Part shown: one piece after another, positions 19,933 through 42,111 of the stretch
Layout: each line of letters begins with the position of its first letter
How positions within the stretch are numbered: position 1 is the stretch's first letter
Assembly: GCA_965199175.1 (NCBI GenBank)
Contig: OZ240684.1
Span: 1,643,288-1,707,287 of the forward strand
DNA from: Alphaproteobacteria bacterium
GTDB taxonomy: Bacteria > Pseudomonadota > Alphaproteobacteria > G963923945
Direction: 5' to 3'
DNA: 64,000 nucleotides
The notes under the pieces: generated by a model
What the model saw: the letters and a program-made list of their open reading frames with translations, nothing else
Database searches by the model: none
Told to the model about the DNA's origin: nothing
Position numbers and translations under genes: made by a program

Positions 19933-21444
19933 TCACACCCGTAGCATACGTTGAAGCAACGCAACATCTTCACGAAACGCTGCATCAGAATCACAAAGCT
20001 CCTCAACCTTACGAATCGCATGCATCACCGTCGTATGATCACGATTGCCGAACTTACGGCCAATCTCAGGCAAAGACCGGGAAGTCAGCCGCTTGGCCAG
20101 ATACATCGCAATCTGTCTCGGACGGGCCACCGCACGGGCCCGCCGGGCCGAAGACATTTCCGAAAACCGAATATTAAAATGCTCCGCAACCCGTTTTTGA
20201 ATATGCTCAATACTCACTCTGCGCTCCGAAGAACGCAGGATATCCCCCAACACTTCCTGAATGGATTCAAGGCTGACCGGGCGACCAACCAATGTCGTAT
20301 GCGCAACAATCCGATTGAGAGCACCTTCCAGTTCCCGCACATTTCCGGTGATTTTATAGGCAAGAAATTCCAGAACTTTCTCCGGCAAATCCAGGTCCAT
20401 GCCCTCGGCTTTGGCCTGCAGAATACCCAGACGCAGCTCGTAATTGGTCGGATGAATATCAGCAACCAAACCCCAGCCCAGACGCGAGCGCATCCGCTCC
20501 TCAATGCCTTCTAAATCATTGGGCGATTTATCAGCAGAAATAATAATCTGGCGATTTTGATCAACCAATGCATTGAATGTATGAAAGAATTCTTCCTGGG
20601 TTGAATCTTTGCCGGAAATAAACTGTACATCGTCAATCATCAGCACATCAACCGAACGAAACTGCTCCTTAAAAGACACCGTATCCTTAAATCGCAACGC
20701 ACGAATAAACTGATACATGAATTTTTCAGCCGAGAGATAAATAACCCGCCGGTTGGGATGCTTGGTCCGGATATGCCAGGCAATCGCATGCATCAGATGG
20801 GTCTTGCCAAGACCAACCCCGCCATAAAGGAAAAGCGGGTTGAAAGATACCGACTCCGCATCCGCTACCCGCCGGGCCGCCGCAAAAGCAAATTCATTGG
20901 GCTTGCCGACAATAAAACGCTCAAATGTAAAGCGGGAATCCAACGGTGCTGAAATATGGGCTGCCCAATCAGATTCTTTGGCATCTCCAGGAGAACTTCC
21001 CCGACCAACAGATTCCGGCAAAACCGCCTCAACAGACAAATCCTGATCCGTCCCCACATCCTTTGAGACAACCCCGGCTCCCTGATCCTTCTGACCACTC
21101 TCAGACCCGGTGACAACCTGGATTTCAACCTGTTCAATGTCTTGGTTTTCTTCCCGCCAAAGAGCCTCAATACGCTCAGAATAATGGGTGAGAATCCAAT
21201 CACGCATAAAGCGGGTCGGAACACTCATACGCAAACAGCCGTGCTCACAGCCGATAAAAGTCAGCGGTTTAAGCCAACTCCGATACGCCGCATCACCAAA
21301 TTCGCACCGCAATGTATTGCGAATCCGTGCCCATTGATGCGCATAGGTCTCTCTACGCTGGCCTTCATGAAGGCCCAAAGGATCATTCTTAACTTCTACA
21401 TGCGAACTGGCCAACCGGTCCCCCTTCCCGTTTTTCATATCCAT
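19933..21444 (-). CDS. dnaA: chromosomal replication initiator DnaA
   Basis: 503 aa; AAA+ motif LFLYGGVGLGKTHLMHAI; C-terminal DnaA-box-binding helix. Confidence 0.95.
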   Translation of the reverse strand: MDMKNGKGDRLASSHVEVKNDPLGLHEGQRRETYAHQWARIRNTLRCEFGDAAYRSWLKPLTFIGCEHGCLRMSVPTRFMRDWILTHYSERIEALWREENQDIEQVEIQVVTGSESGQKDQGAGVVSKDVGTDQDLSVEAVLPESVGRGSSPGDAKESDWAAHISAPLDSRFTFERFIVGKPNEFAFAAARRVADAESVSFNPLFLYGGVGLGKTHLMHAIAWHIRTKHPNRRVIYLSAEKFMYQFIRALRFKDTVSFKEQFRSVDVLMIDDVQFISGKDSTQEEFFHTFNALVDQNRQIIISADKSPNDLEGIEERMRSRLGWGLVADIHPTNYELRLGILQAKAEGMDLDLPEKVLEFLAYKITGNVRELEGALNRIVAHTTLVGRPVSLESIQEVLGDILRSSERRVSIEHIQKRVAEHFNIRFSEMSSARRARAVARPRQIAMYLAKRLTSRSLPEIGRKFGNRDHTTVMHAIRKVEELCDSDAAFREDVALLQRMLRV

Positions 21445-28052: not shown

Positions 28053-30038
28053 ATGAGCAAGGTCATCGGCATTGATCTGGGAACAACCAATTCCTGTGTC
28101 GCCGTTATGGATGGCAAAGACGCCAAAGTTATCGAAAACAGCGAAGGGACCCGGACAACCCCTTCGATGGTTGCCTTTGCTGAAGACGGGGAACGTCTGG
28201 TCGGTCAACCAGCCAAACGCCAGGCGGTCACGAATCCGGAAAATACCTTGTTTGCTATCAAACGGCTGATTGGCCGGCGGATGGATGACGCCATGGTCTC
28301 CAAGGACAAAGATATGGTGCCGTATTCCATCCAGGGCAATGATAAAGGAGATGCCTGGGTTGAATGCCGTGGCGAGATGTACAGCCCCAGCCAGATCAGC
28401 GCATTCATCCTCCAGAAAATGAAGGAAACCGCCGAAAGCTATCTTGGCGAATCGGTCAGTCAGGCCGTGATCACTGTACCGGCTTATTTTAATGATTCTC
28501 AGCGTCAGGCAACAAAAGATGCCGGAAAAATTGCCGGCCTGGAAGTCTTACGCATCATCAATGAACCAACAGCCGCCGCCCTGGCATATGGTCTTGATAA
28601 AAAGGAAAGCGGTATCATCGCGGTCTATGATCTTGGCGGGGGGACGTTCGATGTTTCAATCCTGGAAATCGGTGACGGTGTCTTTGAGGTTAAATCAACC
28701 AATGGCGATACATTTTTAGGAGGGGAAGACTTTGACAAGCGGATCATTGATCACCTGGCCGATACATTCAAGCAAGAACAAGGAATTGATCTGCGTGAGG
28801 ATAAGCTGGCCTTGCAACGCCTGAAAGAAGCTGCCGAAAAAGCCAAAATTGAGCTTTCCACCGCCGCTCAGACTGAGATCAATTTGCCTTTCATCACCGC
28901 TGATTCAAGCGGTCCCAAGCATCTCAATATCAAGATGACCCGTGCTCAGCTGGAAAAGCTGGTTGAAGATCTGGTCGAACGCACCATTGCGCCTTGTAAG
29001 GCAGCCCTCAAGGATGCCGGGCTGAAAGCCTCAGATATCAAAGAAGTCATCCTGGTTGGTGGAATGACCCGCATGCCCAGGATTGCCGAAACCGTCAAAT
29101 CACTGTTCGGACATGAACCGCATCGCGGGGTCAATCCTGATGAGGTTGTGGCCGCCGGTGCAGCGATTCAAGGCGGTGTCCTCAAGGGCGATGTTAAGGA
29201 TGTTCTGTTGCTTGATGTTACACCGCTCTCCCTGGGGATTGAGACGTTAGGCGGCGTTTTCACACGGCTGATTGAGCGTAATACAACTGTCCCGACCCGC
29301 AAGAGCCAGGTTTTTTCAACCGCCGAAGATAATCAGGGAGCCGTCACCATCCGGGTCTTTCAAGGTGAGCGTGAAATGGCGGCTGATAACAAGCCGCTTG
29401 GCCAGTTTGATCTGATCGGTATTCCCCCAGCCCCACGCGGCACACCTCAAATTGAGGTTACATTCGACATTGATGCCAACGGGATTGTCAATGTTTCGGC
29501 AAAAGACAAAGCCACCAATAAAGAACAGCAAATACGTATTGAGGCTTCCGGCGGTTTATCGGATGAAGAAATTGACAAGATGGTCAAAGAGGCCGAGGCC
29601 AATGCGTCCCAGGATAAGGAGCGCCGTGAACGTGTCGAAGCGGTCAATCAGGCCGAGTCAATCATTCATAGTACTGAGAAAAATCTCAAAGATCATGGGG
29701 ATAAAATTTCCGAAGAAGAAAAAAATGCTATCGAATCAGCCCTGAATGATCTGCGCACCGCTAAAGATCAGGATGATTCCAGTGCTGAGGATATCAATAC
29801 CAAGGTCGGTGCTCTGGCTCAGGCCGCCATGAAACTCGGTGAGGCGGTTTATAAAGCCAGTCAAACCGAAGCCGAAGACAGTGATCAAGCTGAACAACCG
29901 ACAAATAACGAAAAAGACGATAATGTGGTTGATGCTGATTTTGAGGATGTCTCATCATCGGCTGATCAGAGCCAGCCTCAGGATAAAAAAGCCAAAAACA
30001 GCGATGGCAAACAAAAGGATCAGAAAAAATCAGCCTAA
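28053..30038 (+). CDS. dnaK: chaperone DnaK (Hsp70) with a long acidic C-terminal tail
   Basis: [23 protein letters not shown] signatures. Confidence 0.97.
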
Positions 30039-30083: not shown

Positions 30084-31214
30084 ATGACTAAGGAGGATTA
30101 TTACAGCATCCTTGGGGTTTCCCGTGATGCCGATTCATCGACCTTAAAATCGGCGTATCGCAAGCTGGCGATGCAATATCATCCGGATCGCAATCCCGAT
30201 GACAAACAGGCTGAACGGCGATTCAAGGATGTGAATGAAGCCTATGAAATCCTCAAAGACAGCCAAAAACGCGCCGCCTATGATCAATTCGGCCATGCCG
30301 GAGTTGACCCCAACAACAGTGCCGGACAATCCGGTGGCTTTGAATTCAGTGGCGGCTTTTCGGATATTTTCGATGAAATGTTCGGGGATGTCTTTTCAGG
30401 AGGGAGGCGGCGCGCCGGACCCAAACGCGGGGCCGATTTGCGTCATGATATGGAAATTTCGTTGTCTGAAGCATTTGCCGGAAAAACAACCATTCTTCCT
30501 CTGGGTACATTGGCTGCCTGCGAAACCTGTAATGGCAGTGGCGGCAAAGACGGAGCACAACCAGTCACCTGCACCACGTGTCGCGGCCAGGGAAAAGTAC
30601 GGGCACAACAAGGATTTTTCACCATTGAACGAACCTGCCATCGCTGTGGTGGCCGCGGACAGATGATCGAAGACCCCTGCCTGAAATGCGGTGGTTCGGG
30701 GCGGGTGCGGCGTCATAAGGAACTCAAGGTCGCCATCCCGGCCGGCATTGAGGATGGTGCCAGGATCCGGTTGGCCAATGAAGGGGAAGCAGGCGATTAT
30801 GGCGCACCACCAGGGGATCTGTATCTTTTTATTTCGGTCAAACCGCATCGAATTTTTCAACGCGATGGAGCAAATATTTATTGTCGGGTCCCGATCCCGA
30901 TGGTCACAGCAGCATTGGGTGGCACGATTGAGGTTCCGACCATTGACGGCGCACGTGCCCGGGTCACTGTTCCGGTTGGTACTCAGGTTGGCCAGCAATT
31001 CCGCCTGAAAAACAAAGGGATGACGGTTCTTAAATCTTCCGTGCGCGGTGATATGTTTATCGAGGCATTGGTTGAGACCCCGACCAATCTCAGCAAAAAA
31101 CAAAAAGAAATTTTGCGCATGTTTGATTCTGAAGGCTCCCAGGAAAGCAACAGCCCTGAATCAGAAGGCTTCTTTGCCAAGGTCAAAGATCTATGGGAAG
31201 ACCTCAAGGATTAG
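30084..31214 (+). CDS. dnaJ: chaperone DnaJ
   Basis: J domain with an HPD motif, a G/F region, and 4 x CxxCxGxG zinc-finger repeats. Confidence 0.95.
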
Positions 31215-31331: not shown

Positions 31332-32177
31332 ATGCCTCCATTGCGCATTGCCATCCCCGGCGCGGCGGGCCGTATGGGGCGGTTGTTGCTTTCTGAAATT
31401 CTCTCTGGAAAAGACTATCGCTTAACCGGAGCCGGTGAATGTCCGGGGCATCAGGATCTTGGTAAAGATGCCGGGGTCCTGGTCGGTCATGAGCCGTGTC
31501 GTGTTCTCGTGAGCGATGATCCGGCCACCATGATCACCAATGCCGATGTCATCATTGACTTCACCGCCCCTTGCGGTGCCAGTCAATATGCACCGTTGGC
31601 GGTTGCCAACCATGCCGCTTATGTCATCGGGGGAACAGCCCTGGATACCGACAGCCAGACCGCCATCAATCAGGCCGCCGGGAAGATCCCGGTTGTACAG
31701 GCGGCCAATATGAGTCTGGGTATTACGTTATTAACCAGCTTAATCGAATATTGTGCGGCCTGCCTGGATGATGATTTTGATATTGAGGTGATGGAACTCC
31801 ATCATGCCGCCAAGGCTGATGCGCCTTCAGGGACTGCCCTGGCTTTGGCTACTGCGGCGGCAAAAGGACGCGGGATTGATCCTGAGCAGGCGATGCTCCC
31901 GCCTCATTCCGGACGCAAAGGCTCCCGGCCAAAAGGGGGAATTGGCTTTGCCACCGCACGGGGGGGAGATGCCATCGGTGATCATAGTCTGCTCTTTTGC
32001 GGGACCGGGGAACGGCTGGAACTCACCCACCGGGCCCATAACCGCCGCATCTATGCCATTGGTGCCCTGAAAGCCGCCAGATGGGCGGTCCGGCAACCAC
32101 CGGGCCGGTACAGTATGCAGGATGTTCTTAATCTCTCCATGCCCAAAGCATGGGCAGGATATCAATACGAAAAATAA
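31332..32177 (+). CDS. dapB: 4-hydroxy-tetrahydrodipicolinate reductase
   Basis: 281 aa; Rossmann motif IAIPGAAGRMG. Confidence 0.9.
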   Translation: MPPLRIAIPGAAGRMGRLLLSEILSGKDYRLTGAGECPGHQDLGKDAGVLVGHEPCRVLVSDDPATMITNADVIIDFTAPCGASQYAPLAVANHAAYVIGGTALDTDSQTAINQAAGKIPVVQAANMSLGITLLTSLIEYCAACLDDDFDIEVMELHHAAKADAPSGTALALATAAAKGRGIDPEQAMLPPHSGRKGSRPKGGIGFATARGGDAIGDHSLLFCGTGERLELTHRAHNRRIYAIGALKAARWAVRQPPGRYSMQDVLNLSMPKAWAGYQYEK

Positions 32178-32334
32178 AATACAAAATGCGTCTTTTTAAG
32201 CGGGATGAAAGAAAATGATGAAGAAAAATGAGGAATGCTCTCTTAAAAAAAAACCGAAAAAAGACGTGCTTTTTATACAAAGACCATCATATTCATAGTA
32301 TTGGTTTCAATCTCCAGGAACTGAGAGGGCTGAT

Positions 32335-32895
32335 ATGCCGGAATGGATAAAACAGATCACAGCCGCACTGATTGTCTTGCTGGTCACGGCTTGTGATACA
32401 GAGGCCAGCAAAGCTGATATTGAGCAATATAATGCCCTGATTGCTGAAAAACATGATTTGCTGGGGCGGGCAATTATTCTCCAGGGTCGCCTGATTGAGA
32501 GCTTCAATATGAATGATGAAGTGATCGATGATGTTAAATTCATGGATGCTGAAGGGTATCTTGAGGAACTCCTGGAACGGATTGGCACAGTCGAAACGAT
32601 TGAAGCCATGCCTCTGCCCTCTCAGGCTTCGGACCTGCAAGAACTCCATCGTCAACTGGCCGATGCGGTTCATTTTCTCAGGGCCTGCTATGATGCCTTA
32701 GAGGATTCGGCTTTCGGCAATATCAGCTATGCTGAGACAGCATGGTTCAAATCCCGTAATGCCTTTGGCCATTTCACCAAAGAACTGGTCTTCCGGACCA
32801 CCGGGGAAGAACTGCCGGATATTCAGGAACGTGACATATCCGAATATAATATCGGCGAGAGTATGAAGGTCGAGCAAGGGCCGCAAGCGCCTTAA
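32335..32895 (+). CDS. hypothetical lipoprotein (LVTAC lipobox), in a low-GC stretch
   Basis: 186 aa; signal peptide plus lipobox; the rest is a predicted coiled-coil or helical region; GC is clearly lower than the flanks. Confidence 0.5.
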   Translation: MPEWIKQITAALIVLLVTACDTEASKADIEQYNALIAEKHDLLGRAIILQGRLIESFNMNDEVIDDVKFMDAEGYLEELLERIGTVETIEAMPLPSQASDLQELHRQLADAVHFLRACYDALEDSAFGNISYAETAWFKSRNAFGHFTKELVFRTTGEELPDIQERDISEYNIGESMKVEQGPQAP

Positions 32896-33002
32896 TCATA
32901 ATATTCCCCACCAAACAGCCGGGAATTCGCAGCATCCATTTATCAATGATCAGATCAGGATCTTTTCTGAAATGATTCCGGTGATCGCATTGCCCGGCCG
33001 TC

Positions 33003-33773
33003 ATGGCTGGAGACCATGAAACGTCTTCATATATTTTCCATATATTTTCCGATGAGGCCGGGTGTTTCGGCTTTCATAAAAAAGGGAATGCCAGCCGATA
33101 TTTTATCATCTGCAGCGTCATGATGGAAAATTGCGCCATCAGTCAGGCTTTGGAAGATTTAAGACGTAAGATAGTCTGGGAAAGATCCCTTATTGGGGAC
33201 AGCTTCCATGCCTGTCATGACAGGCAAAAAATCCGCAATAAGGTTTTTAGCATCATGAAAAACCATGAATTTGACGTCCACGCAACGATTATGGAAAAAC
33301 CAAAAGCGCGTTCACATGTCCGGAAATCAAACCATATTTTTTACAAATATGGCTGGTATTACCAGCTAAAAAACGCCATATCGGCAGAGAAAAAAAGAAC
33401 CCGCGCATTTCTGTTTACAACGGCCAGTATTGGAAAGAAAAAACATCAGGCTCAGTTTACCCATGCAATCAATCATGCAGTCAATGAAGTGGCGCAGCAA
33501 ACCATCCCGGACGGCAGATGGAAGACGTCCCCTTCATCGTCCGATCCTTGCTTACAGATTGCAGAGTATTGCAGCTGGGCTCGCTCTTCGAAGAAAATGG
33601 GAACGCAACGACCCACGGTCTTACAATCTGATCAAAGACCACATCAAATAGGGATCAGATACGAATATGACCTTTGGCAATATGGGAAAACCCACTCTTA
33701 CTTAAGAGTATCAAAAGCCATAACCGAAGGGAAAAGCAGCCCGCCCCGCAATCTCAACTATCGGCTTGAATGA
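33003..33773 (+). CDS. DUF3800-family protein, in a low-GC stretch
   Basis: 256 aa; the N-terminal IFSDEAGCF (DE[S/A]G) motif is characteristic of DUF3800, a putative RNase H-like fold; the exact start is uncertain. Confidence 0.5.
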   Translation: MAGDHETSSYIFHIFSDEAGCFGFHKKGNASRYFIICSVMMENCAISQALEDLRRKIVWERSLIGDSFHACHDRQKIRNKVFSIMKNHEFDVHATIMEKPKARSHVRKSNHIFYKYGWYYQLKNAISAEKKRTRAFLFTTASIGKKKHQAQFTHAINHAVNEVAQQTIPDGRWKTSPSSSDPCLQIAEYCSWARSSKKMGTQRPTVLQSDQRPHQIGIRYEYDLWQYGKTHSYLRVSKAITEGKSSPPRNLNYRLE

Positions 33774-33923
33774 TCGACAAACCGAAAGGTTCCCGGAACC
33801 CGTTCGCCAGGCAAGGGACGGGATCTTTTATGGTTGTGTATCTCGGGTCATACATATTCTGTAAAAAAACACCCTCAGAGCAGAGGGATACATCAATCAA
33901 TCAGAATTGAAGTCTTTTTGCTT

Positions 33924-34502
33924 TCATGCGGTGGCTTTGGCCAAAGCATGGCGTAAGGCCCGGGCAAAATCGAATCGCTCCCCCCCATTCAGGAAACCGC
34001 CAATCACCAGACGCCGGCCCCGGGACATCAGAGTCAATGGGGTATCATGATGCGGTGTATCGGCCATTTCTATCCAGGTCCAGTAGGGCTGAAAATCCCA
34101 GTGACACCGCCGGCCCCGGGTATCAACCCGCTCAATCCGGAGCCTTGATGCAGTCAAAGACACCCGCTCACACAGCCGGGCCTGACGGAAATTCAGCCAA
34201 AAAGCCCCACCAAGCAACACCATATCAAGCCCGAAAAAACCCAATACCGGCCAGGCCCCCAATGCCAGGAAAAAAATCCCAACAACAAAAAAAATCACCC
34301 CCATCACCGCCGTCACAACCAGGGCAGCACGCACCGACAAACTGCGATGGGGATACAAAACGGCATCAAACAAAACCGGCTCCTGGGTCGATGAATCATC
34401 GGCGGAGTGCCGGTCATCATAACCGGAATGCCCCGACCCATGATAAACGGATCTGTCGCTAGAAGATTGATGATTCTGCGTTGTTTCCATCACCAATACC
34501 AT
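33924..34502 (-). CDS. membrane protein: two TM helices followed by a small cytoplasmic domain (DUF2244 / bPH_2-like architecture), with an N-terminal His/Ser-rich tail
   Basis: The hydrophobic hairpin AALVVTAVMGVIFFVVGIFFLALGAWPVLGFFGLDMVLLGGAFWL followed by a domain of about 90 aa. Confidence 0.45.
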   Translation of the reverse strand: MVLVMETTQNHQSSSDRSVYHGSGHSGYDDRHSADDSSTQEPVLFDAVLYPHRSLSVRAALVVTAVMGVIFFVVGIFFLALGAWPVLGFFGLDMVLLGGAFWLNFRQARLCERVSLTASRLRIERVDTRGRRCHWDFQPYWTWIEMADTPHHDTPLTLMSRGRRLVIGGFLNGGERFDFARALRHALAKATA

Positions 34503-34627
34503 CTGTTCGAATCTCTTCGCATCTGGCTATTTGCATCTGAATCCCTGATACAGATTGTTGTCTCATGAACGAAGTTGAATGATCCTGTTTTGTTATTTCT
34601 GATCATTTTGCGGTTTTGCTTCGTCAG

Positions 34628-34743
34628 GAGACTGTTTAGCTTCATAAGACTGTTTAGCTTTATAAGATTGTTTGCCTTTATTAAGACTGTTTAAATTTAT
34701 AAGACCGTTTTTAAATTTATAAGACCGTTTAAATTTATATAGG
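34628..34743. repeat. About 6 x 18-20 bp degenerate tandem repeats (gactgtttagcttcataa)
   Basis: Read directly from the sequence. Confidence 0.85.
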
Positions 34744-34959
34744 AATATGACAGCACGATATCATGACAGCATGATCAAAAATCATTGATACGGGAAATAT
34801 CAATAAAAAAATAACGCAAAAAAATGACCGGAAAATACAATCCCGGAACCATCCCGGCTCTATCCGGGCTTTGTTCCTGAGTTCGGTTTTTTTTCAGGGC
34901 CGGGGTTTCCATGTTCAGTTCCCGGATACGACCCACAACAACACCGATGAAAAACCAGC

Positions 34960-35640
34960 TTGATGACAGGATTGATGAAAAAAATTTCCCCAATGGGCCG
35001 CCCTTCCATCGATACCGTTTTCCGGCGGTTTGAAGGCCAAACACCTCATCCGCGTGGTGAACTCAACCACAGCAATCTTTTCACGCTTTTGGTGGCGGTG
35101 GTGCTGTCTGCTCAGGCAACCGATAAAGGAGTCAATAAAGCAACTGCGGCCCTGTTTACGATTGCCGATACACCGCAAAAAATGCTGGCCCTGGGTCTGG
35201 ATCATCTCAAGGATTATATCAAAACCATCGGCCTCTATCATTCCAAAGCCAAACACATCATCGGCCTCAGCCAGGCCCTGATTGAACGGCATGGTGGCAC
35301 TGTCCCGGATAATCGCGAACAGCTCCAGGCGTTGCCTGGGGTTGGACGCAAAACTGCCAATGTTGTGCTCAATATCGGCTTTGGACACCCGACCATTGCT
35401 GTTGACACCCATTTGTTTCGGGTCTCCAACCGGACCGGTCTTGCCCCGGGCCGCACGCCTCTGGAGGTGGAAAAAAAGCTCCATTCCCGGGTTCCGGAAT
35501 GGGCCGCCTTGCGTGCTCATCACTGGCTGATTCTCCATGGTCGCTATGTCTGCAAAGCCCGTAAACCCGACTGTGGGCACTGTATTATTACCGATCTTTG
35601 CCAGTATCCTCATAAGACGGCCTCCGTCACATCTGAATAA
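34960..35640 (+). CDS. nth: endonuclease III
   Basis: HhH-GPD motif LPGVGRKTANVVL; C-terminal 4Fe-4S cluster CxxxxxxCxxC. Confidence 0.9.
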   Translation: MMTGLMKKISPMGRPSIDTVFRRFEGQTPHPRGELNHSNLFTLLVAVVLSAQATDKGVNKATAALFTIADTPQKMLALGLDHLKDYIKTIGLYHSKAKHIIGLSQALIERHGGTVPDNREQLQALPGVGRKTANVVLNIGFGHPTIAVDTHLFRVSNRTGLAPGRTPLEVEKKLHSRVPEWAALRAHHWLILHGRYVCKARKPDCGHCIITDLCQYPHKTASVTSE

Positions 35641-35685
35641 TGTTTCAGGACTGTTTCAGGTCATACTGTCTAAGGTCAGACTTTC

Positions 35686-36648
35686 TCAGGTCAGATGTTC
35701 TGGTCTTTTGGATTGCGACCCGGACACAAGCCGCCGGGGGGATTGCGGTCGCCGGCCAGTCACAGGGGGCGTATTCTGCATCAAATCGACCAGCAACAAC
35801 GCCAGGGCAGCGGTTGCGATAACCGGTGCGATCAGATTAACCACCGGCAGGCTGAATAAAAAAGCCACCACCATCCCATGCCGCCATATCCGGCCAGCTG
35901 CCCGGCGACGCCAGAAGGCTATTTGATCCGGGCACAGGCGACGTAAGGCCACCAGGTCAAAATATTCACGCCCCAGCAGATAGCCGTTGGCCCCATAATA
36001 CAGCAGGGGATAAAGCGGCCCCAGCAGCAATGCCGGTAACAGAAGAATATTCACCACCACAATCAGCCCGGCATATCGAAGGGTCAGCATCACCGCCCGC
36101 CCCGGCGACAAAGAGCGTGGCGGCGGCAATCCGTCTGTGTAATGAGCCTCAGCAGAAGCAGCCACCACATCCAGAAACAAGCTCACAGCAACCCCGGTTA
36201 AGGCCGGAAACAGTGCCAAAGCCAGAACAAAGATCACCAGCATCCCCAATGATGCAAGCAGCCCATCCAACCAATACCAACCGGTTGAAGGGAGCAGAAA
36301 CAAACCCCCGCTCAATACTGCGGCCAGAAGAACCAGCACCACAAAAGCCCCGATCACAGACAACAGCAAAACCCGGCGGATTCGCCGGTCTGATAACAAG
36401 CCAAAGGCAGCAGCAAAACGAGTCAACATGGCCCCATCATCAATCAGCAAACAACCAATCACAAGCAGGATCACACCCCGGCAAACAGCCCAATGATAAA
36501 GACCGGTACTGATAAGGACGGAAAGGACTGCTTGATGGATATCCGAAAGACTACGTGTCAGAAAGAAAAGATACGGGTCGGGAAAATTACGTGTCAGCAT
36601 CAATAACGCCGGAGACGAAACAACGGACCCGATAGCCATATTGAGCAT
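35686..36648 (-). CDS. polytopic inner-membrane protein of the EI24 / CysZ-like family
   Basis: 320 aa with about 6 predicted TM helices; family assignment by resemblance only. Confidence 0.5.
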   Translation of the reverse strand: MLNMAIGSVVSSPALLMLTRNFPDPYLFFLTRSLSDIHQAVLSVLISTGLYHWAVCRGVILLVIGCLLIDDGAMLTRFAAAFGLLSDRRIRRVLLLSVIGAFVVLVLLAAVLSGGLFLLPSTGWYWLDGLLASLGMLVIFVLALALFPALTGVAVSLFLDVVAASAEAHYTDGLPPPRSLSPGRAVMLTLRYAGLIVVVNILLLPALLLGPLYPLLYYGANGYLLGREYFDLVALRRLCPDQIAFWRRRAAGRIWRHGMVVAFLFSLPVVNLIAPVIATAALALLLVDLMQNTPPVTGRRPQSPRRLVSGSQSKRPEHLT

Positions 36649-36955: not shown

Positions 36956-38989
36956 ATGCATGAAACCAGAAAAAGCATCATCAAGACTGCCGCAGATGAA
37001 TCAAACAAGCCGGAAATAAATAAACCGGAGACTGATACAACGGCACCCAACAGACCAGAGACCCATGAGCCAGAGACCCATAGGCCGGAGACTCATAGGC
37101 CAGAGACCTTCGATCTCACCTCAATGGATGTGGGGGCGGAAAAACGCGCGGCTTTACGTGGCCTGTTCCCGGAAGTTTTTGCAGAAGACCGGATTGATTT
37201 TGATCAGCTCAAACGTGTTCTGGGTACATGGGTGGAGCCGGGGAAAGAACGCTTTGGCCTCACCTGGCCCGGCAAGGCTGATTGTATGCGCGTCATCCAG
37301 CAACCCAGCATTGCCACCCTGAAGCCAGCACGGGATCAATCGGTTGATTTTGATACGACCGGTCATCTGTTCATTGAAGGGGATAATCTGGAGGTCCTCA
37401 AGCTGTTGCAAAAAGCCTATTTCGGTAAGGTCAAGATGATCTATATCGACCCGCCCTATAACACCGGCAAGGAGTTTATCTATCCCGATAAGCATGCGGA
37501 AAATCTCAGGACCTATCTGGAATATACCGGCCAGCTGGATGGGCAGGGCCGCAAATTTTCCACCAATACCGAACAAACCGGGCGGTATCATTCCAACTGG
37601 CTGAGTATGATGTATCCGCGCCTCTATCTGGCCAGGAATTTACTCCGCGAGGATGGGGTGATTTTTATCAGCATCGATGACAACGAACAGGCGCATTTAA
37701 AAGCCCTGTGTGATCAAATTTTCGGAGAGGAGAATTTTGTTGGTATAATAATTTGGAAAAAGAAAACAAACGGAAATAATATGGGGGAGATTCCCTCTGT
37801 TCATGACTATTTCATATGTTATGCAAAAAATTTATTGGTCACAAATTTAATAGGTTTTCCGATATCTGAAGAATATATCAGAAAAAATTATTCTAATACT
37901 GATAATGACCCGAGAGGACCTTGGACGACTACTGATTTATCGGCAAATCATAAAGGACCTTATTTTGAAATCATAAATCCAAATACCAATGATTGTTTTC
38001 TTCCTCCTAAAGGTAGGTATTGGGTTTTTGGAAAAGAGGAAGTTAAAAAGAGAATCAAAGATGGAAGAATAATTTTTGGAAAATCCAATACGGGAAGACC
38101 TGTTCAGAAAAAATATTTGTCTGAAAAAATCTCAATGAGGGTCAAGCCTGAATCGTGGTGGGATAATCATGGGATGAATGAAGATGGAACAACTGAGATC
38201 TCTGAATTATTTGAGCCGAAATTTTTTGACCACCCTAAACCTACAATAACTTTAAAGCACCTTTGCAATATCACAACTCAAAATACAGATTTAATATTGG
38301 ACTTTTTCTCTGGCTCATCCTCAACCGCTCATGCGGTGATGCAGTTGAATGCTGAGGATGGGGGCCAGCGCAAATATATCTGTGTCCAGTTGCCCGAACC
38401 CTGTGACGAAAAATCCGAAGCCTGTAAAGCCGGGTATGACACCATTGCCGATATTGGTCGCGAACGCATCCGCCGGGCTGCCCAAAAAATCGCCGACCAA
38501 ACAATCAGCTCTGAACAGACCGGTAAACTCGACCTTGATACCGGCGAAAAGCCGGATCTGGGCTTCCGGGCCTTTCGGCTGGATCGCTCCAATTTTAAGG
38601 TCTGGGATCAGAAAGCCGACGATGCCGAAACCATCGCCCAACGCCTGGAAGATCATATTGATCATCTGGATGCCACCAGCACGCCCGAAGATATTCTCTA
38701 TGAATTATTGCTCAAAGCCGGCTTTGAACTGACAACCCCGGTGACTCAGCGCACCCTGGCCGGAAAACCCGTATTTTCCATTGAAGGGGAAACCGGCCCC
38801 CTGCTGATTTGCCTGGAAAAAACCATCACGACCGAATTGATTGACGCCTTAGCCGCCGCCAACCCGGCCCAGGTGATCTGCCTGGATGCCGGCTTCCGGG
38901 GCAATGATCAACTCAAAGCCAATGCCGTGCAAAGTTTCAAAACCCAGGCCCGGATCACCAGCCAGGATATTATCTTCCAGACAGTCTAG
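36956..38989 (+). CDS. mod: Type III restriction-modification system methyltransferase (Mod), an N6-adenine MTase
   Basis: 677 aa; IDPPYNTG catalytic motif, FxGxG SAM motif near the C-terminus (FFSGSSSTAHA); the central roughly 600 bp is AT-rich (a target-recognition domain of foreign composition); in-frame 15-bp repeats in the N-terminus. Confidence 0.9.
   Translation: MHETRKSIIKTAADESNKPEINKPETDTTAPNRPETHEPETHRPETHRPETFDLTSMDVGAEKRAALRGLFPEVFAEDRIDFDQLKRVLGTWVEPGKERFGLTWPGKADCMRVIQQPSIATLKPARDQSVDFDTTGHLFIEGDNLEVLKLLQKAYFGKVKMIYIDPPYNTGKEFIYPDKHAENLRTYLEYTGQLDGQGRKFSTNTEQTGRYHSNWLSMMYPRLYLARNLLREDGVIFISIDDNEQAHLKALCDQIFGEENFVGIIIWKKKTNGNNMGEIPSVHDYFICYAKNLLVTNLIGFPISEEYIRKNYSNTDNDPRGPWTTTDLSANHKGPYFEIINPNTNDCFLPPKGRYWVFGKEEVKKRIKDGRIIFGKSNTGRPVQKKYLSEKISMRVKPESWWDNHGMNEDGTTEISELFEPKFFDHPKPTITLKHLCNITTQNTDLILDFFSGSSSTAHAVMQLNAEDGGQRKYICVQLPEPCDEKSEACKAGYDTIADIGRERIRRAAQKIADQTISSEQTGKLDLDTGEKPDLGFRAFRLDRSNFKVWDQKADDAETIAQRLEDHIDHLDATSTPEDILYELLLKAGFELTTPVTQRTLAGKPVFSIEGETGPLLICLEKTITTELIDALAAANPAQVICLDAGFRGNDQLKANAVQSFKTQARITSQDIIFQTV
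37054..37107 (+). repeat. About 3.6 x 15 bp in-frame tandem repeats (ccagagacccatgag) encoding PETHE/PETHR repeats in the Mod N-terminus
   Basis: Read directly from the sequence. Confidence 0.9.
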
Positions 38990-39120
38990 AGGGCATATGA
39001 CCGACAAAGACCCGAAGAAAAAAGGCATCATACGGGTATAAAGTGTAAGGAAACAAAAAGCAGATGTCGGTCAACCCAGCCTTGGGAAGCGAACCATCTG
39101 CATGATCAGTATAAGATAAT

Positions 39121-42111
39121 GTGAGAAAATCGCAAGTGAAACTTAAATTTGATCCCTCACTGGACTATCAACAAGACGCCATCAATGCAGTGGTTGATGT
39201 CTTTGCCGGTCAGGCCAGCCCGCAAAACAGTGCGGCGGCTTTTCAATCCTTGCAAATCGGCGGAATGTTTGAACAAGAACTCGGGGTCGGGAATCTTTTG
39301 ACTCTGCCCGATGATGTGCTGCTGGCCAATGTCCATACAATACAGGAAGCCAACGCCATCGAAAAAGTGCCTGCGCTTCAGGGGCGGCATTTCTCGATTG
39401 AGATGGAAACCGGAACCGGCAAAACATACGTCTATCTGCGCACGGTGTTTGAGCTGAATAAACGCTATGGGTTTCGCAAATTCATCATTGTAGTGCCCAG
39501 CGTCGCAGTCCGTGAAGGAGTGCTCAAAAGCATCACCATCATGAAGGACCATTTCCGGACCCTCTATGACATGGTGCCGTTTGATTATTTTGTCTATGAT
39601 TCCAAAAAACTGGCAGCCGTGCGGGAATTTTGCGGCGGCAACCATATCAAGATCATGGTGATCAATATCCAGGCATTCGTGAAAGACTTCCCCGACCAGC
39701 CACAATCAGAAACAATCACCGATACAACCAAACAACCAGACCAAAAGCGTGCTGATCAAAAACGTAACGTCATCAACCGGGAAAATGACCGGATGTCGGG
39801 AAGAAAACCCATTGAGTTTATTCAGGCAACCCGTCCTCTGGTGATTATTGATGAACCACAAAGTGTCGATAATACCCAAAAAGCACAAGATGCCATCAAA
39901 CGCCTCAATCCATCAGCAACTTTGCGCTACAGTGCCACCCATCGCAATCCGTATAATCTGCTTTATAAACTGGACCCCATCAAAGCCTATGATCTGCGGC
40001 TGGTGAAACGGATTGAGGTGGCCTCAGTCCGGACCGAAGATCACTTCAATGATGCGTTTGTAAGGCTTCTGCAAACTGATAATACAAACGGCATCCGGGC
40101 CCGGGTTGAAATCCATAAGGAAGGAGCAAAAGGGCCAAAACCGGTCCGGGTATGGGTCCGGCAAGGCGATGATCTGTTCGTAAAATCCGGCCAGCGGGCC
40201 GCGTATGAAAATGGCTATATCATTCAGAATATTGATTGCACACCCGGAGCCGCAGGGGTGGAACTCACCTCCGGGCATTGGCTGGCTCTGGGCCACGAAA
40301 TCGGTGGTTTGAATGATGATATTATGAAACGCCAGGTTTTTGAAACCGTCGAACAGCATCTGAAAAAAGAGCGGGCCTTTCAAAACAAAGGCATCAAGCC
40401 ACTCTCCCTGTTCTTTATCGACACAGTCGCCAATTATCGCATCTATCATGATGATGGCTCAACCGGGCTGGGAAAAATCGGTCGATGGTTCGAGGATGCT
40501 TTTTGCGAACTCATACAAAAACCAGCCTATAAGGGCCTCATCCCCCATGCGGTTACCAATATCCATAATGGGTATTTCAGCCGGGATAAAAAGGGGCGAG
40601 TCCGGGATACCAGAGGCAACACCAGAGATGATGAAGAAACCTATCATCTGATTATGCGGGATAAGGAAAAGCTGTTGGATCAGGCCGAACCTCTGCGCTT
40701 TATTTTTTCCCATTCCGCCTTGCGGGAAGGGTGGGACAACCCCAACGTGTTCCAGATCTGCACCCTGAATGAAACCCGGTCCCCGGACAAAAAACGCCAG
40801 GAAATTGGTCGCGGCTTGCGTCTGGCGGTCAATCAGGAAGGACACCGCATTCACGATGAAAACATCAACCGCCTCACAGTTATCGCCAATCAATCCTACG
40901 AAGAATTCGCCCGCACTCTGCAATCCGAATTTGAAGAGGAATACGGAATCCGTTTCGGGCGGGTCGAAAAAATTGCCTTTTCTAAACTTGTCTCCCCAAA
41001 TTCTCAAGGGGTGGAAACAGAAATCGGACAAGCAACCTCAACCACCATCTGGCAGGAACTGGTGGATCATGGGTACCTGAATGAGGATGGAGAAATCCTT
41101 GATTCATTCGACCCCAAAAACCCCGATTTTAAATTGAAAATCTCCGCGGAATTTGTCTCTCTGGAACCGGAAATCACTGATATCATCAATCAAAAGCTGT
41201 TCAAAAACCGCATCCCTGATGCCCGGGAAAAACGACTGCTCACCTTTCATAAACAAGTGTATCTGGATCCCGAATTTGAAAAACTATGGCAACGAATCAG
41301 CCAACGCACCCGTTACCGGGTGCGGTTTAATACCGATGCACTGATCGAAAAAGCCGCCAGGCGCATTAAAAACATTGACCCCATCAAGCCAGTCCGCATC
41401 ACCACAACCCGTGCTGGTCTCGATATCACCGAGGCCGGAGTTGATTCCCAAACCGTCTTAGAACAAAAATCCTTTGAGACTCAATCTGTGGCATTTTTGC
41501 CCGATATTCTGGCTTTCTTACAAAAGGAAACCGAACTCACCCGCCATACATTGGTTCAGATTTTACAACAATCCGGTCGGCTGGCCGAATTCCAGATCAA
41601 TCCGCAATCCTTCATGGAGGCAGTCACCCGGGAAATCTCCCGGGCCCTTCGGGATCTGATGCTGGATGGAATCCAATACGAAAAAATCACCGACCAAAGA
41701 TGGGATATGGCCCGGATTGAGAAAGATGCCGCAGAAGAAATTCAACGCTATTTAGACCGACTCTATACAGTGAAGAACACCGAAAAAACCCTGTTTAATG
41801 CCATTGAATGTGATTCTGAAGTTGAGCGGCGATACGCCAGGGAACTGGATAATGACGAAAATGTACGGTTGTTCGTAAAACTCCCCGGCTGGTTCGTCAT
41901 TGATACGCCCATTGGCCCCTATAACCCCGATTGGGCTTTTGTCGCCGAACGCGATGAAAGCCTCTATTTTGTTCGCGAGACCAAGTCATCCACGGACCGC
42001 CAGCATCTCCGGACCAGGGAAGATCAGAAAATTGCCTATGGTCAAAAACATTTCAAAACCATTGGGGTTGATTATGCGCTCAGAACTTCTCTGCGGGAGG
42101 AAAGATGGTGA
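39121..42111 (+). CDS. res: Type III restriction enzyme Res (SF2 helicase plus a C-terminal PD-(D/E)xK nuclease); GTG start
   Basis: 996 aa; helicase motifs METGTGKT and LVIIDEPQS, C-terminal nuclease region; it lies immediately downstream of mod. Confidence 0.9.
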   Translation: MRKSQVKLKFDPSLDYQQDAINAVVDVFAGQASPQNSAAAFQSLQIGGMFEQELGVGNLLTLPDDVLLANVHTIQEANAIEKVPALQGRHFSIEMETGTGKTYVYLRTVFELNKRYGFRKFIIVVPSVAVREGVLKSITIMKDHFRTLYDMVPFDYFVYDSKKLAAVREFCGGNHIKIMVINIQAFVKDFPDQPQSETITDTTKQPDQKRADQKRNVINRENDRMSGRKPIEFIQATRPLVIIDEPQSVDNTQKAQDAIKRLNPSATLRYSATHRNPYNLLYKLDPIKAYDLRLVKRIEVASVRTEDHFNDAFVRLLQTDNTNGIRARVEIHKEGAKGPKPVRVWVRQGDDLFVKSGQRAAYENGYIIQNIDCTPGAAGVELTSGHWLALGHEIGGLNDDIMKRQVFETVEQHLKKERAFQNKGIKPLSLFFIDTVANYRIYHDDGSTGLGKIGRWFEDAFCELIQKPAYKGLIPHAVTNIHNGYFSRDKKGRVRDTRGNTRDDEETYHLIMRDKEKLLDQAEPLRFIFSHSALREGWDNPNVFQICTLNETRSPDKKRQEIGRGLRLAVNQEGHRIHDENINRLTVIANQSYEEFARTLQSEFEEEYGIRFGRVEKIAFSKLVSPNSQGVETEIGQATSTTIWQELVDHGYLNEDGEILDSFDPKNPDFKLKISAEFVSLEPEITDIINQKLFKNRIPDAREKRLLTFHKQVYLDPEFEKLWQRISQRTRYRVRFNTDALIEKAARRIKNIDPIKPVRITTTRAGLDITEAGVDSQTVLEQKSFETQSVAFLPDILAFLQKETELTRHTLVQILQQSGRLAEFQINPQSFMEAVTREISRALRDLMLDGIQYEKITDQRWDMARIEKDAAEEIQRYLDRLYTVKNTEKTLFNAIECDSEVERRYARELDNDENVRLFVKLPGWFVIDTPIGPYNPDWAFVAERDESLYFVRETKSSTDRQHLRTREDQKIAYGQKHFKTIGVDYALRTSLREERW

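What the first reader, a model, noticed from the sequence alone, without database searches (positions are those of the whole stretch)
32178..34959. A low-GC islet between dapB and nth encoding a lipoprotein, a DUF3800 protein and a membrane bPH/DUF2244-like protein
The dapB-to-nth interval carries about 2.8 kb whose first two genes (32335-32895 and 33003-33773) are visibly lower in GC than the core genes around them, and they are preceded by an AT-rich leader. The DUF3800 family (N-terminal DE[S/A]G motif, here IFSDEAGCF) is uncharacterised and predicted to have an RNase H-like fold; genes of this family are typically scattered accessory genes. The co-located lipoprotein has no recognisable domain. 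This looks like a small horizontally acquired cassette of unknown function, possibly defence-related.
Basis: partly seen in the sequence, partly recalled or inferred. Interest (0 to 1): 0.55.

Follow-up and report, generated by a model that had tools for sequence, protein, structure and literature searches.

The report
Decaying DUF3800 gene between conserved genes
The dapB–nth interval is not one imported three-gene cassette: two of its genes are old, conserved residents of this spot, and the only foreign gene, a mobile RNase H-like DUF3800 gene, is broken and being lost, so the locus is ordinary.

Summary
The ORFs, coordinates and domain calls are right, but the genes have three separate histories.

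- **DUF2244 (33924-34502, minus strand):** host-like GC. It occupies this position next to dapB in about a dozen distant Rhodospirillales genomes.
- **Lipoprotein (32335-32895):** it lies directly after dapB in all four close relatives and in two lineages where it is only 26-30% identical. dN/dS is 0.12, the same as dapB, and codon usage is host-like. It belongs to a rare family with no Pfam model and is predicted to be a four-helix bundle.
- **DUF3800 (33003-33773):** the only accessory gene. It has the lowest GC of 48 ORFs (44.1%, z -3.0), and its relatives ride IS1595 transposons and prophage-like contigs.

The DUF3800 copy here is damaged:
- An 11-bp duplication displaces the original start codon.
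- A 4-bp duplication and an 11-nt insertion put 21 conserved residues out of frame.
- The stop codon is lost.
- A motif Asp has become Glu.

One relative keeps only the 3' end of this gene at the same site, and three have none. No retron, CRISPR, transposase or RNA-motif partner is present.

Verdict: an eroding relic of one mobile nuclease gene between conserved genes. Interest is low.

The parts
32178..32334 (+). AT-rich dapB-lipoprotein spacer (33.8% GC)
   Evidence: It has the lowest GC of 26 intergenic spacers, z about -2.1. No Rfam family matches; every hit has E > 2.
32335..32895 (+). Conserved lipoprotein gene (186 aa) from a rare family without a Pfam model; predicted four-helix bundle
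   Evidence: Lipobox LVTA|C. dN/dS against L005 is 0.12, equal to dapB. GC z is -1.5 and codon usage is host-like. It lies directly after dapB in L005, L082, L083, L084 and in the distant loci L096-L101. Only 27 clusters among 1.84 billion representatives match. No Pfam or PDB sequence match. AF2 mean pLDDT is 74, with four long helices; only generic helical-bundle hits come back.
32937..33917 (+). About 0.98-kb lineage-specific insertion carrying only the DUF3800 gene (approximate boundaries)
   Evidence: Aligned against the empty site in L005, where the spacer is 65 bp. A possible 13-nt direct repeat lies at both junctions, p about 0.02. No IS1595 inverted repeats, transposase or P63C remnant were found.
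33003..33773 (+). DUF3800 ORF (256 aa as it stands), read here as a pseudogene of a roughly 218-aa RNase H-like protein
   Evidence: PF12686 E 2.4e-6. Homologues are 217-219 aa and 45-54% identical. GC is 44.1%. The AF2 core is confident and RNase HII is the best PDB match, 1eke E 3.8e-6.
33028..33049 (+). 11-bp tandem duplication (CATATATTTTC x2) that puts the ancestral start codon out of frame
   Evidence: Removing one copy restores ATG(33016) MKRLHIFSDEAG, which matches the family N-terminus. A GGAG at 33008-33011 sits in front of ATG 33016, not in front of ATG 33003 (read).
33462..33485 (+). 12-bp in-frame tandem duplication (adds HAIN), absent from all homologues
33579..33586 (+). 4-bp tandem duplication (GCTC GCTC), giving a +1 frameshift
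   Evidence: Read. Family profile positions 182-206 match the alternative frame at nt 33580-33654 (24.3 bits, E 3.4e-9). L082 has no such duplication.
33646..33656 (+). 11-nt insertion that returns to the original frame; it holds a TAG (33649-33651) in the ancestral frame
33702..33704 (+). Lost stop codon (TTA where the family ends); read-through adds 23 codons
   Evidence: All homologues end ...HYY* at this point. L082 keeps TAG here. Residues 236-256 have pLDDT below 50.
33872..33887 (-). Terminator-like hairpin followed by a T-run, downstream of DUF2244
33924..34502 (-). DUF2244 membrane protein gene, an ancestral neighbour of dapB
   Evidence: PF10003 E 1.3e-42. GC 54.9%. dapB-DUF2244(-)-nth order is seen in L002, L007, L010, L011, L013, L018, L037 and L060; dapB-DUF2244(-) is also seen in L001, L003, L006 and L008, where no nth was found or the contig ends. 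dN/dS 0.17.
34629..34739 (.). 18-bp x6 tandem array in the divergent DUF2244/nth spacer
   Evidence: It occurs only once in the window and is absent from all fetched loci and from the relatives' spacers.

Best explanation
The interval holds three layers of different age, not one cassette.

1. **DUF2244** is an ancestral core neighbour of dapB and nth.
2. **The lipoprotein** is an old, vertically inherited gene under purifying selection, and its place directly after dapB is conserved across deep lineages. It most likely encodes a membrane-anchored periplasmic four-helix-bundle protein. The periplasmic location and any envelope role are inferred, not shown.
3. **DUF3800** is a single roughly 0.98-kb insertion between the lipoprotein gene and DUF2244. 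The insertion happened in the common ancestor of at least four sampled genomes.

When intact, the DUF3800 protein is about 218 aa, with an RNase HII-like fold and an N-terminal DEAG motif. This subfamily is carried as cargo by IS1595-type transposons and prophage-like elements. It most likely acts as a metal-dependent nuclease serving the mobile element, for example by excluding competing elements. That activity and role are inferred, not shown.

In this lineage the gene is being lost. Two relatives have deleted it entirely and one keeps only the 3' quarter. The window copy carries several short tandem duplications and insertions. These displace its start codon, put 21 conserved residues out of frame and remove its stop codon. 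The 256-aa ORF is therefore best read as a pseudogene that happens to remain open.
For: **Synteny**
- dapB-DUF2244(-)(-nth) order is found in about 12 distant genomes.
- dapB-lipoprotein-DUF2244-nth order is found in L005, L082, L083 and L084.
- dapB-lipoprotein adjacency also holds at 26-30% identity, in loci of 60% GC.

**Selection on the lipoprotein**
- dN/dS is 0.12, equal to dapB.

**Damage to DUF3800**
- Family members are 217-219 aa long.
- The family profile splits across two reading frames.
- The indels are mapped.
Other members average 0.56 deviations, with a maximum of 3. The deviations include D to E in the QxAD motif.
- AF2 gives low confidence for exactly the out-of-frame segment and the read-through tail.

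**History of the insertion**
- L082 keeps an orthologous 3' remnant together with shared downstream non-coding sequence.
- The topology ((window, L084), (L005, L082)) is supported in 1000 of 1000 four-point bootstraps, so the window and L082 fall in different subclades.

**Mobility and fold of the family**
- In L081 an IS1595 transposase, a P63C gene and DUF3800 lie together between perfect 27-bp terminal inverted repeats.
- 11 IMG/VR loci carry a family member, two of them directly after a CI-like repressor gene.
- Family genes are 4-13 GC points below their host locus in every case.
- RNase HII is the best structural match.
Against: - The frame-0 ORF is uninterrupted for 256 codons. It keeps the DEAG, HA..D and DPCLQ motifs and a confidently predicted core, so a weakened or altered protein cannot be ruled out.
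- The two late indels sum to 15 nt and restore the frame. That could reflect selection rather than the one-in-three chance expected.
- Assembly errors cannot be excluded without the reads, although tandem duplications of 4, 11 and 12 bp are not typical sequencing errors.
- L082, L083 and L084 are low-coverage long-read contigs with their own indel errors, so only their large-scale features are reliable.
- Presence in two subclades could also come from recombination between lineages rather than an ancestral insertion.
- The nuclease activity and the exclusion role are inferred from fold and genomic context only.
Confidence: 0.8

Rival explanations
1. One reading: the lipoprotein and DUF3800 genes (with or without DUF2244) form one horizontally acquired low-GC cassette, possibly a defence system.
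For: - The genes are adjacent, and two of them share a strand.
- The leader is AT-rich.
- DUF3800 has low GC and weakly matches a PADLOC model, DUF3800_VII at E 9e-7.
- A Type III R-M system lies 2 kb downstream.
Against: - The three genes differ in phylogenetic distribution.
- The lipoprotein and DUF2244 genes have host-like composition and are under purifying selection.
- None of 17 DUF3800 loci has a lipoprotein or DUF2244 homologue within 5 kb.
- Lipoprotein loci in six other genomes or contigs lack DUF3800.
Confidence: 0.03
2. The 256-aa DUF3800 ORF is still functional. It would be a remodelled variant that starts at ATG 33003, with a new C-terminal segment tolerated or selected for.
For: - The ORF is open throughout.
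- The frameshifts compensate each other (4 + 11 = 15 nt).
- An upstream in-frame ATG rescues the N-terminus.
- AF2 predicts a confident RNase H-like core, mean pLDDT 82.5.
- Public annotation records the ORF as a protein (P0001).
Against: - The replaced segment contains near-invariant residues, R-K-W-E-R..D..SY..I, and is modelled with pLDDT about 60.
- The Shine-Dalgarno-like GGAG serves the displaced ATG 33016, whose reading frame stops after 35 codons.
- A motif Asp is replaced by Glu, and there are excess changes at conserved columns.
- The stop codon is lost.
- Sister lineages have deleted the gene.
Confidence: 0.12
3. The frameshifts are assembly or sequencing artefacts, and the genome carries an intact, active DUF3800 gene.
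For: The related metagenome contigs L082-L084 clearly contain indel errors that split dnaJ, dapB and dnaK, so errors of this kind exist in such data.
Against: - In the window, dnaK, dnaJ, dapB, nth and 40 or more other ORFs are intact.
- The lesions are tandem duplications of 4, 11 and 12 bp plus an 11-nt insertion, not homopolymer slips.
- The lost stop codon and the D to E change are substitutions.
Confidence: 0.05

Closest known systems
Stand-alone DUF3800 (PF12686) proteins, an RNase H-like family of unknown function
   Same: The Pfam match is above the curated cut-off. The gene is 45-54% identical to a large subfamily of about 218 aa. It shares the N-terminal F[AS]DEAG motif and the HA..D and DPCLQxAD motifs. 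RNase HII and the Argonaute PIWI domain are the best structural matches, in line with the RNase H fold reported for DUF3800 in PMC10910872.
   Different: This copy has a displaced start codon, an out-of-frame conserved segment, a lost stop codon and QxAE in place of QxAD.
IS1595-family transposons with passenger genes (transposase-P63C-DUF3800 unit found here in L081, L076 and L077)
   Same: The passenger DUF3800 is from the same subfamily: 44% identity over the open reading frame, and 17 of 21 residues identical in the out-of-frame segment.
   Different: The window contains no transposase, no P63C gene and no terminal inverted repeat, even allowing 8 mismatches or fewer.
Retron type VII (reverse transcriptase plus DUF3800 effector; Mestre et al. 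2020, PMC7736814)
   Same: A weak match to the PADLOC DUF3800_VII model (E 9e-7, covering residues 13-153 only).
   Different: No reverse transcriptase gene or msr/msd-like RNA is adjacent. The neighbours are the lipoprotein and DUF2244 genes.
TPR-DUF3800 accessory proteins of Cas12a2/Cas12a3 loci (PMC10910872, PMC13594972)
   Same: They share the DUF3800 RNase H-like domain.
   Different: There is no TPR region (the ancestral protein is only about 218 aa), and no cas genes or CRISPR array nearby.
DUF3800-I to DUF3800-XI RNA motifs (Weinberg et al. 2017, PMC5737381)
   Same: These motifs are associated with genes of the same Pfam domain.
   Different: None was detected: no Rfam hit at E 10 or lower other than chance snoRNA or leader matches in 31900-35200, and nothing at gathering score anywhere in the window.
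DUF2244 (PF10003), a membrane protein with a predicted bacterial PH-like domain (PMC2817789)
   Same: Full-length match, E 1.3e-42.
   Different: Nothing unusual. It is a conserved core neighbour, not part of any islet.

Membership tests
DUF3800 (PF12686) | Profile match above Pfam's gathering score | tested here: met
   28.7 bits against a cut-off of 21, E 2.4e-6. The subfamily profile scores 251 bits.
DUF3800 (PF12686) | N-terminal DE[A/S]G acidic motif and RNase H-like fold | tested here: met
   The motif FSDEAG is present. The AF2 model's best PDB matches are RNase HII (1eke, E 3.8e-6), RNase H2A and the Argonaute PIWI domain.
DUF3800 (PF12686) | Intact reading frame comparable to family members (about 218 aa, conserved C-terminal helix RKWER..D..SY) | tested here: not met
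   The conserved segment is encoded in another frame, the start codon is displaced, and the stop codon is lost.
Retron type VII | Adjacent reverse transcriptase and msr/msd non-coding RNA | tested here: not met
   The neighbouring ORFs are the lipoprotein and DUF2244 genes. No RNA family was detected.
CRISPR-associated TPR-DUF3800 | TPR domain fused to DUF3800, with an adjacent cas12 or type III locus and CRISPR array | tested here: not met
   DUF3800 is the only domain found. No CRISPR-like array or cas genes lie in the neighbourhood.
IS1595-family transposon passenger | DDE_Tnp_IS1595 transposase and terminal inverted repeats flanking the unit | tested here: not met
   tblastn with the transposase and P63C proteins found nothing significant in the window. 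The inverted-repeat search with 8 mismatches or fewer found nothing.
DUF3800-associated RNA motifs (Rfam) | Covariance-model match next to the gene | tested here: not met
Bacterial lipoprotein (Lgt/LspA substrate) | Signal peptide followed by a lipobox [LVI][ASTVI][GAS]C | tested here: met
   The sequence is MPEWIKQITAALIVLLVTA|C. The Cys is conserved in 15 of the 19 aligned family members. Lipidation itself cannot be tested here.
DUF2244 (PF10003) | Full-length profile match | tested here: met
   145 bits, covering profile positions 1-138 of 138.
Genomic island / horizontally acquired cassette (all three genes) | Joint presence or absence among relatives, and atypical composition for all members | tested here: not met
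   Only DUF3800 varies among relatives and is compositionally atypical.

The most novel reading that the evidence does not exclude
The gene worth attention may be the lipoprotein, not DUF3800. It belongs to a rare, unnamed four-helix-bundle family: 27 clusters among 1.84 billion representatives, with no Pfam model and no solved structure. Its position directly downstream of dapB has been kept in alphaproteobacterial lineages only 26-30% identical. That hints at a conserved functional link with diaminopimelate, peptidoglycan or envelope metabolism. A second possibility is that the IS1595-P63C-DUF3800 unit is an undescribed transposon-borne exclusion module.
Probability: 0.15. Interest if true: 0.4.

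Novelty: new member of a known kind. Interest (0 to 1): 0.15.

Why it matters
- It corrects a tempting reading. Low GC plus an uncharacterised domain suggested a defence islet, but comparative synteny shows a single decaying mobile gene wedged between conserved genes.
- It flags a probable annotation error: a 256-aa 'protein' that is really a frameshift-compensated pseudogene.
- It yields two modest leads. One is a rare lipoprotein family with conserved linkage to dapB. The other is evidence that this DUF3800 subfamily is cargo of IS1595 transposons and of prophage immunity regions, which bears on the still-unknown function of DUF3800.

Tried and rejected
- **Rfam:** a scan of 31900-35200 at E 10 or lower, and of the whole window at gathering score, found no DUF3800 RNA motif and no other RNA family.
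- **PADLOC:** only a weak DUF3800_VII match, with nothing for the lipoprotein or DUF2244.
- **NCBIfam:** nothing meaningful.
- **Exact look-ups** of the window's lipoprotein and DUF3800 products returned no record.
- **IS1595 remnants:** searches for the transposase, P63C and the terminal inverted repeats in the window were negative.
- **Curated phage and plasmid collections:** only distant DUF3800 relatives, 24-29% identical.
- **Target-site duplication:** a 13-nt direct repeat lies at both insertion junctions, but it is only marginally non-random (p about 0.02).
- **tRNA genes:** none in the window, so no tRNA integration site.
- **18-bp array:** found nowhere else, so no family could be built from it.
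Full report
**What is in the interval.** The gene order around the finding is dnaK (28053-30038), dnaJ (30084-31214), dapB (31332-32177), a 186-aa ORF (32335-32895), a 256-aa ORF (33003-33773), a 192-aa ORF on the minus strand (33924-34502), nth (34960-35640), an EI24/CysZ-like gene (35686-36648, minus strand) and a Type III restriction-modification pair (mod 36956-38989, res 39121-42111). Pfam assigns DUF3800 to the 256-aa ORF (E 2.4e-6) and DUF2244 to the minus-strand ORF (E 1.3e-42). The 186-aa protein gets no domain. It has a signal peptide and the lipobox LVTA|C (sequence).

**Composition.** The window has 51.8% GC. Forty-eight long ORFs average 53.6% (sd 3.1).
- DUF3800 is the lowest of the 48, at 44.1% (z -3.0).
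- The lipoprotein gene has 48.8% (z -1.5), comparable to dnaK at 50.1%. Its synonymous codon usage is more host-like than average.
- DUF2244 has 54.9% (z +0.4).
- The dapB-lipoprotein spacer has 33.8%, the lowest of 26 spacers, which average 43.4%.

Only one of the three genes is compositionally atypical.

**Synteny in relatives.** A dapB-anchored scan of one genome per GTDB species returned 75 loci.
- About a dozen distant Rhodospirillales genomes (dapB 44-50% identical) have dnaK-dnaJ-dapB followed within about 50-100 nt by DUF2244 on the opposite strand. Most of these then have nth and EI24. DUF2244 is therefore an ancestral resident of this position.
- The closest genome, L005, is a 2.10-Mb alphaproteobacterial MAG with dapB 81% identical. 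It has dapB-lipoprotein-DUF2244-nth and no DUF3800. Its lipoprotein-DUF2244 spacer is 65 bp, against 1028 bp in the window.
- Three further relatives, found through the lipoprotein (L082, L083, L084), show the same order.

**The lipoprotein.**
- Against L005 its dN/dS is 0.12, identical to dapB. dS is about 1.
- An exhaustive profile search found only 27 clusters among 1.84 billion representatives.
- No family member matches Pfam apart from one chance hit, and no PDB sequence matches.
- AlphaFold predicts four long helices, with mean pLDDT 74. Foldseek returns only generic helical bundles such as chemoreceptor ligand-binding domains, PsbQ and cytochrome b562, all at E 0.07 or higher.
- Family members only 26-30% identical to the window's protein, from loci of 60% GC whose dapB is 49% identical, also lie directly downstream of dapB. 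The order there is dnaK-dnaJ-dapB-lipoprotein-nth-..-EI24.

The adjacency of dapB and this lipoprotein gene is therefore old and conserved. This is the opposite of a recent acquisition. The function remains unknown. A periplasmic, membrane-anchored helical bundle is the most that can be inferred.

**The DUF3800 gene is damaged.** It has 492 homologues, which cluster at 217-219 aa and are 45-54% identical to it. Alignment with them, and a family profile run against all three reading frames, show the following:
- **(a)** An 11-bp tandem duplication (33028-33049) separates the ancestral start from the gene body. The ancestral start is ATG 33016, which reads MKRLHIFSDEAG once one copy is removed, and it is preceded by GGAG. 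The ORF is rescued only by an upstream ATG at 33003 that has no comparable ribosome-binding site.
- **(b)** A 12-bp in-frame duplication (33462-33485) adds four residues that no homologue has.
- **(c)** A 4-bp duplication, GCTC (33579-33586), shifts the frame.
- **(d)** An 11-nt insertion (33646-33656) shifts it back.
- **(e)** The family's stop position reads TTA, which extends the ORF by 23 codons.
- **(f)** The conserved QxAD motif reads QIAE.

Between (c) and (d), the conserved segment ALRRKWERNDPRSYNLIKDHI is encoded in the +1 frame. The family profile matches positions 182-206 there at 24 bits, E 3.4e-9.

Even after repair, the sequence deviates at 4 of 46 columns that are at least 95% conserved. 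Other family members average 0.56 deviations, with a maximum of 3. AlphaFold models a confident RNase H-like core, but gives pLDDT of about 60 for the out-of-frame segment and below 50 for the read-through tail. The best PDB matches are RNase HII (1eke, E 3.8e-6), RNase H2A and Argonaute PIWI domains. This agrees with the published RNase H-fold prediction for DUF3800 (PMC10910872).

**History of the insertion.** L082 retains, at the same site, only the last 54-73 codons of a DUF3800 gene, together with downstream non-coding sequence that aligns with the window's. Identity is 69% in the coding remnant and 76% in the flank, against about 83% over core genes. L005, L083 and L084 have nothing there.

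A dnaK+dnaJ alignment of 3069 ungapped columns gives the topology ((window, L084), (L005, L082)) with L083 outside, in 1000 of 1000 four-point bootstraps. The two genomes that carry DUF3800 sequence therefore lie in different subclades. The simplest reading is one insertion in their common ancestor, followed by independent erosion and loss. Transfer between lineages by recombination is not excluded.

**Where the family normally lives.**
- In L081 the gene is the last of three (IS1595 transposase, P63C protein, DUF3800) enclosed by perfect 27-bp terminal inverted repeats. L076 and L077 carry the same unit, and L085 and L092 also have an IS1595 transposase next to the gene.
- Eleven IMG/VR contigs encode a family member. 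In two of them the gene directly follows a CI-like HTH/S24 repressor gene, and in one it neighbours a Prim-Pol gene.
- Apart from these, no partner gene recurs.
- In every locus the DUF3800 gene is 4-13 GC points below its surroundings. Low GC is therefore a family trait of a mobile gene.
- None of the 17 loci has a lipoprotein or DUF2244 homologue nearby.
- The window itself has no transposase, no P63C gene, no inverted repeats, no reverse transcriptase, no CRISPR array and no DUF3800-associated RNA motif.

**Verdict.** What is there is a conserved dapB-lipoprotein-DUF2244-nth neighbourhood. A single mobile RNase H-like gene was inserted into it long ago and is now decaying. The mechanism proposed for the intact protein is a metal-dependent nuclease carried by transposons and prophages, plausibly for excluding competing elements. 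This rests on fold and genomic context only. The locus is ordinary, and the small leads are the rare dapB-linked lipoprotein family and the IS1595-P63C-DUF3800 unit.

Noticed in passing
window 36956-42111: A complete Type III restriction-modification pair (mod, PADLOC MTase_III E 1.6e-214; res with ResIII and endonuclease domains) has low GC (46.7% and 48.7%). It lies between the EI24 gene and a tadA-like deaminase gene. L082 and L084 lack it at that place, while L005 has three mod-like genes around EI24. This is the real variable defence spot of the neighbourhood.
   Followed up: partly
window 34629-34739: An 18-bp x6 tandem array (consensus AGACTGTTTAGCTTTATA) lies in the divergent DUF2244/nth spacer. 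It is unique in the window and absent from the relatives' spacers and from all 95 loci fetched by then. Its function is unknown: it could be a set of binding sites or a minisatellite made by slippage.
   Followed up: partly
window 35649-35695: A 15-bp x3 tandem repeat (GACTGTCTCAGGTCA) lies in the short convergent spacer between nth and the EI24 gene.
   Followed up: no
L081 3117-5813 (also L076, L077): An IS1595-family transposon of 2.7 kb has perfect 27-bp terminal inverted repeats. It carries two passenger genes, a P63C-domain protein and a 217-aa DUF3800 protein.
   Followed up: partly
L096-L101 (e.g. L099 2511-4014): Distant homologues of the window's lipoprotein (26-30% identical) sit directly downstream of dapB in 60%-GC alphaproteobacterial contigs. 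The dapB-lipoprotein adjacency is therefore conserved across deep lineages for a family that has no Pfam model.
   Followed up: partly
L087 3877-5645; L090 4178-5636: In two prophage-like IMG/VR contigs the DUF3800 gene directly follows a CI-like repressor gene (Peptidase S24 in both; the HTH domain was detected only in L087). This is the usual place for prophage-encoded exclusion genes.
   Followed up: no
window 33003-33773, and L082 around 6700: Short tandem duplications are strikingly frequent in this one decaying gene: 11, 12 and 4 bp in the window, and an 18-bp duplication in the L082 remnant. This suggests that slippage duplications dominate the decay process in this lineage.
   Followed up: no
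window 32941-32953 and 33892-33905: Similar 13-14-nt direct repeats (ATCAATGATCAGA and ATCAATCAATCAGA) lie at the two junctions of the DUF3800 insertion. They are only marginally non-random (p about 0.02 by shuffling).
   Followed up: partly
window 19933-21444 (minus strand): dnaA lies about 11 kb upstream of the finding. It is followed by a 2.5-kb stretch with only small ORFs (a rhodanese-like gene and rpsT). No tRNA gene and no Rfam family is found anywhere in the 64-kb window.
   Followed up: no
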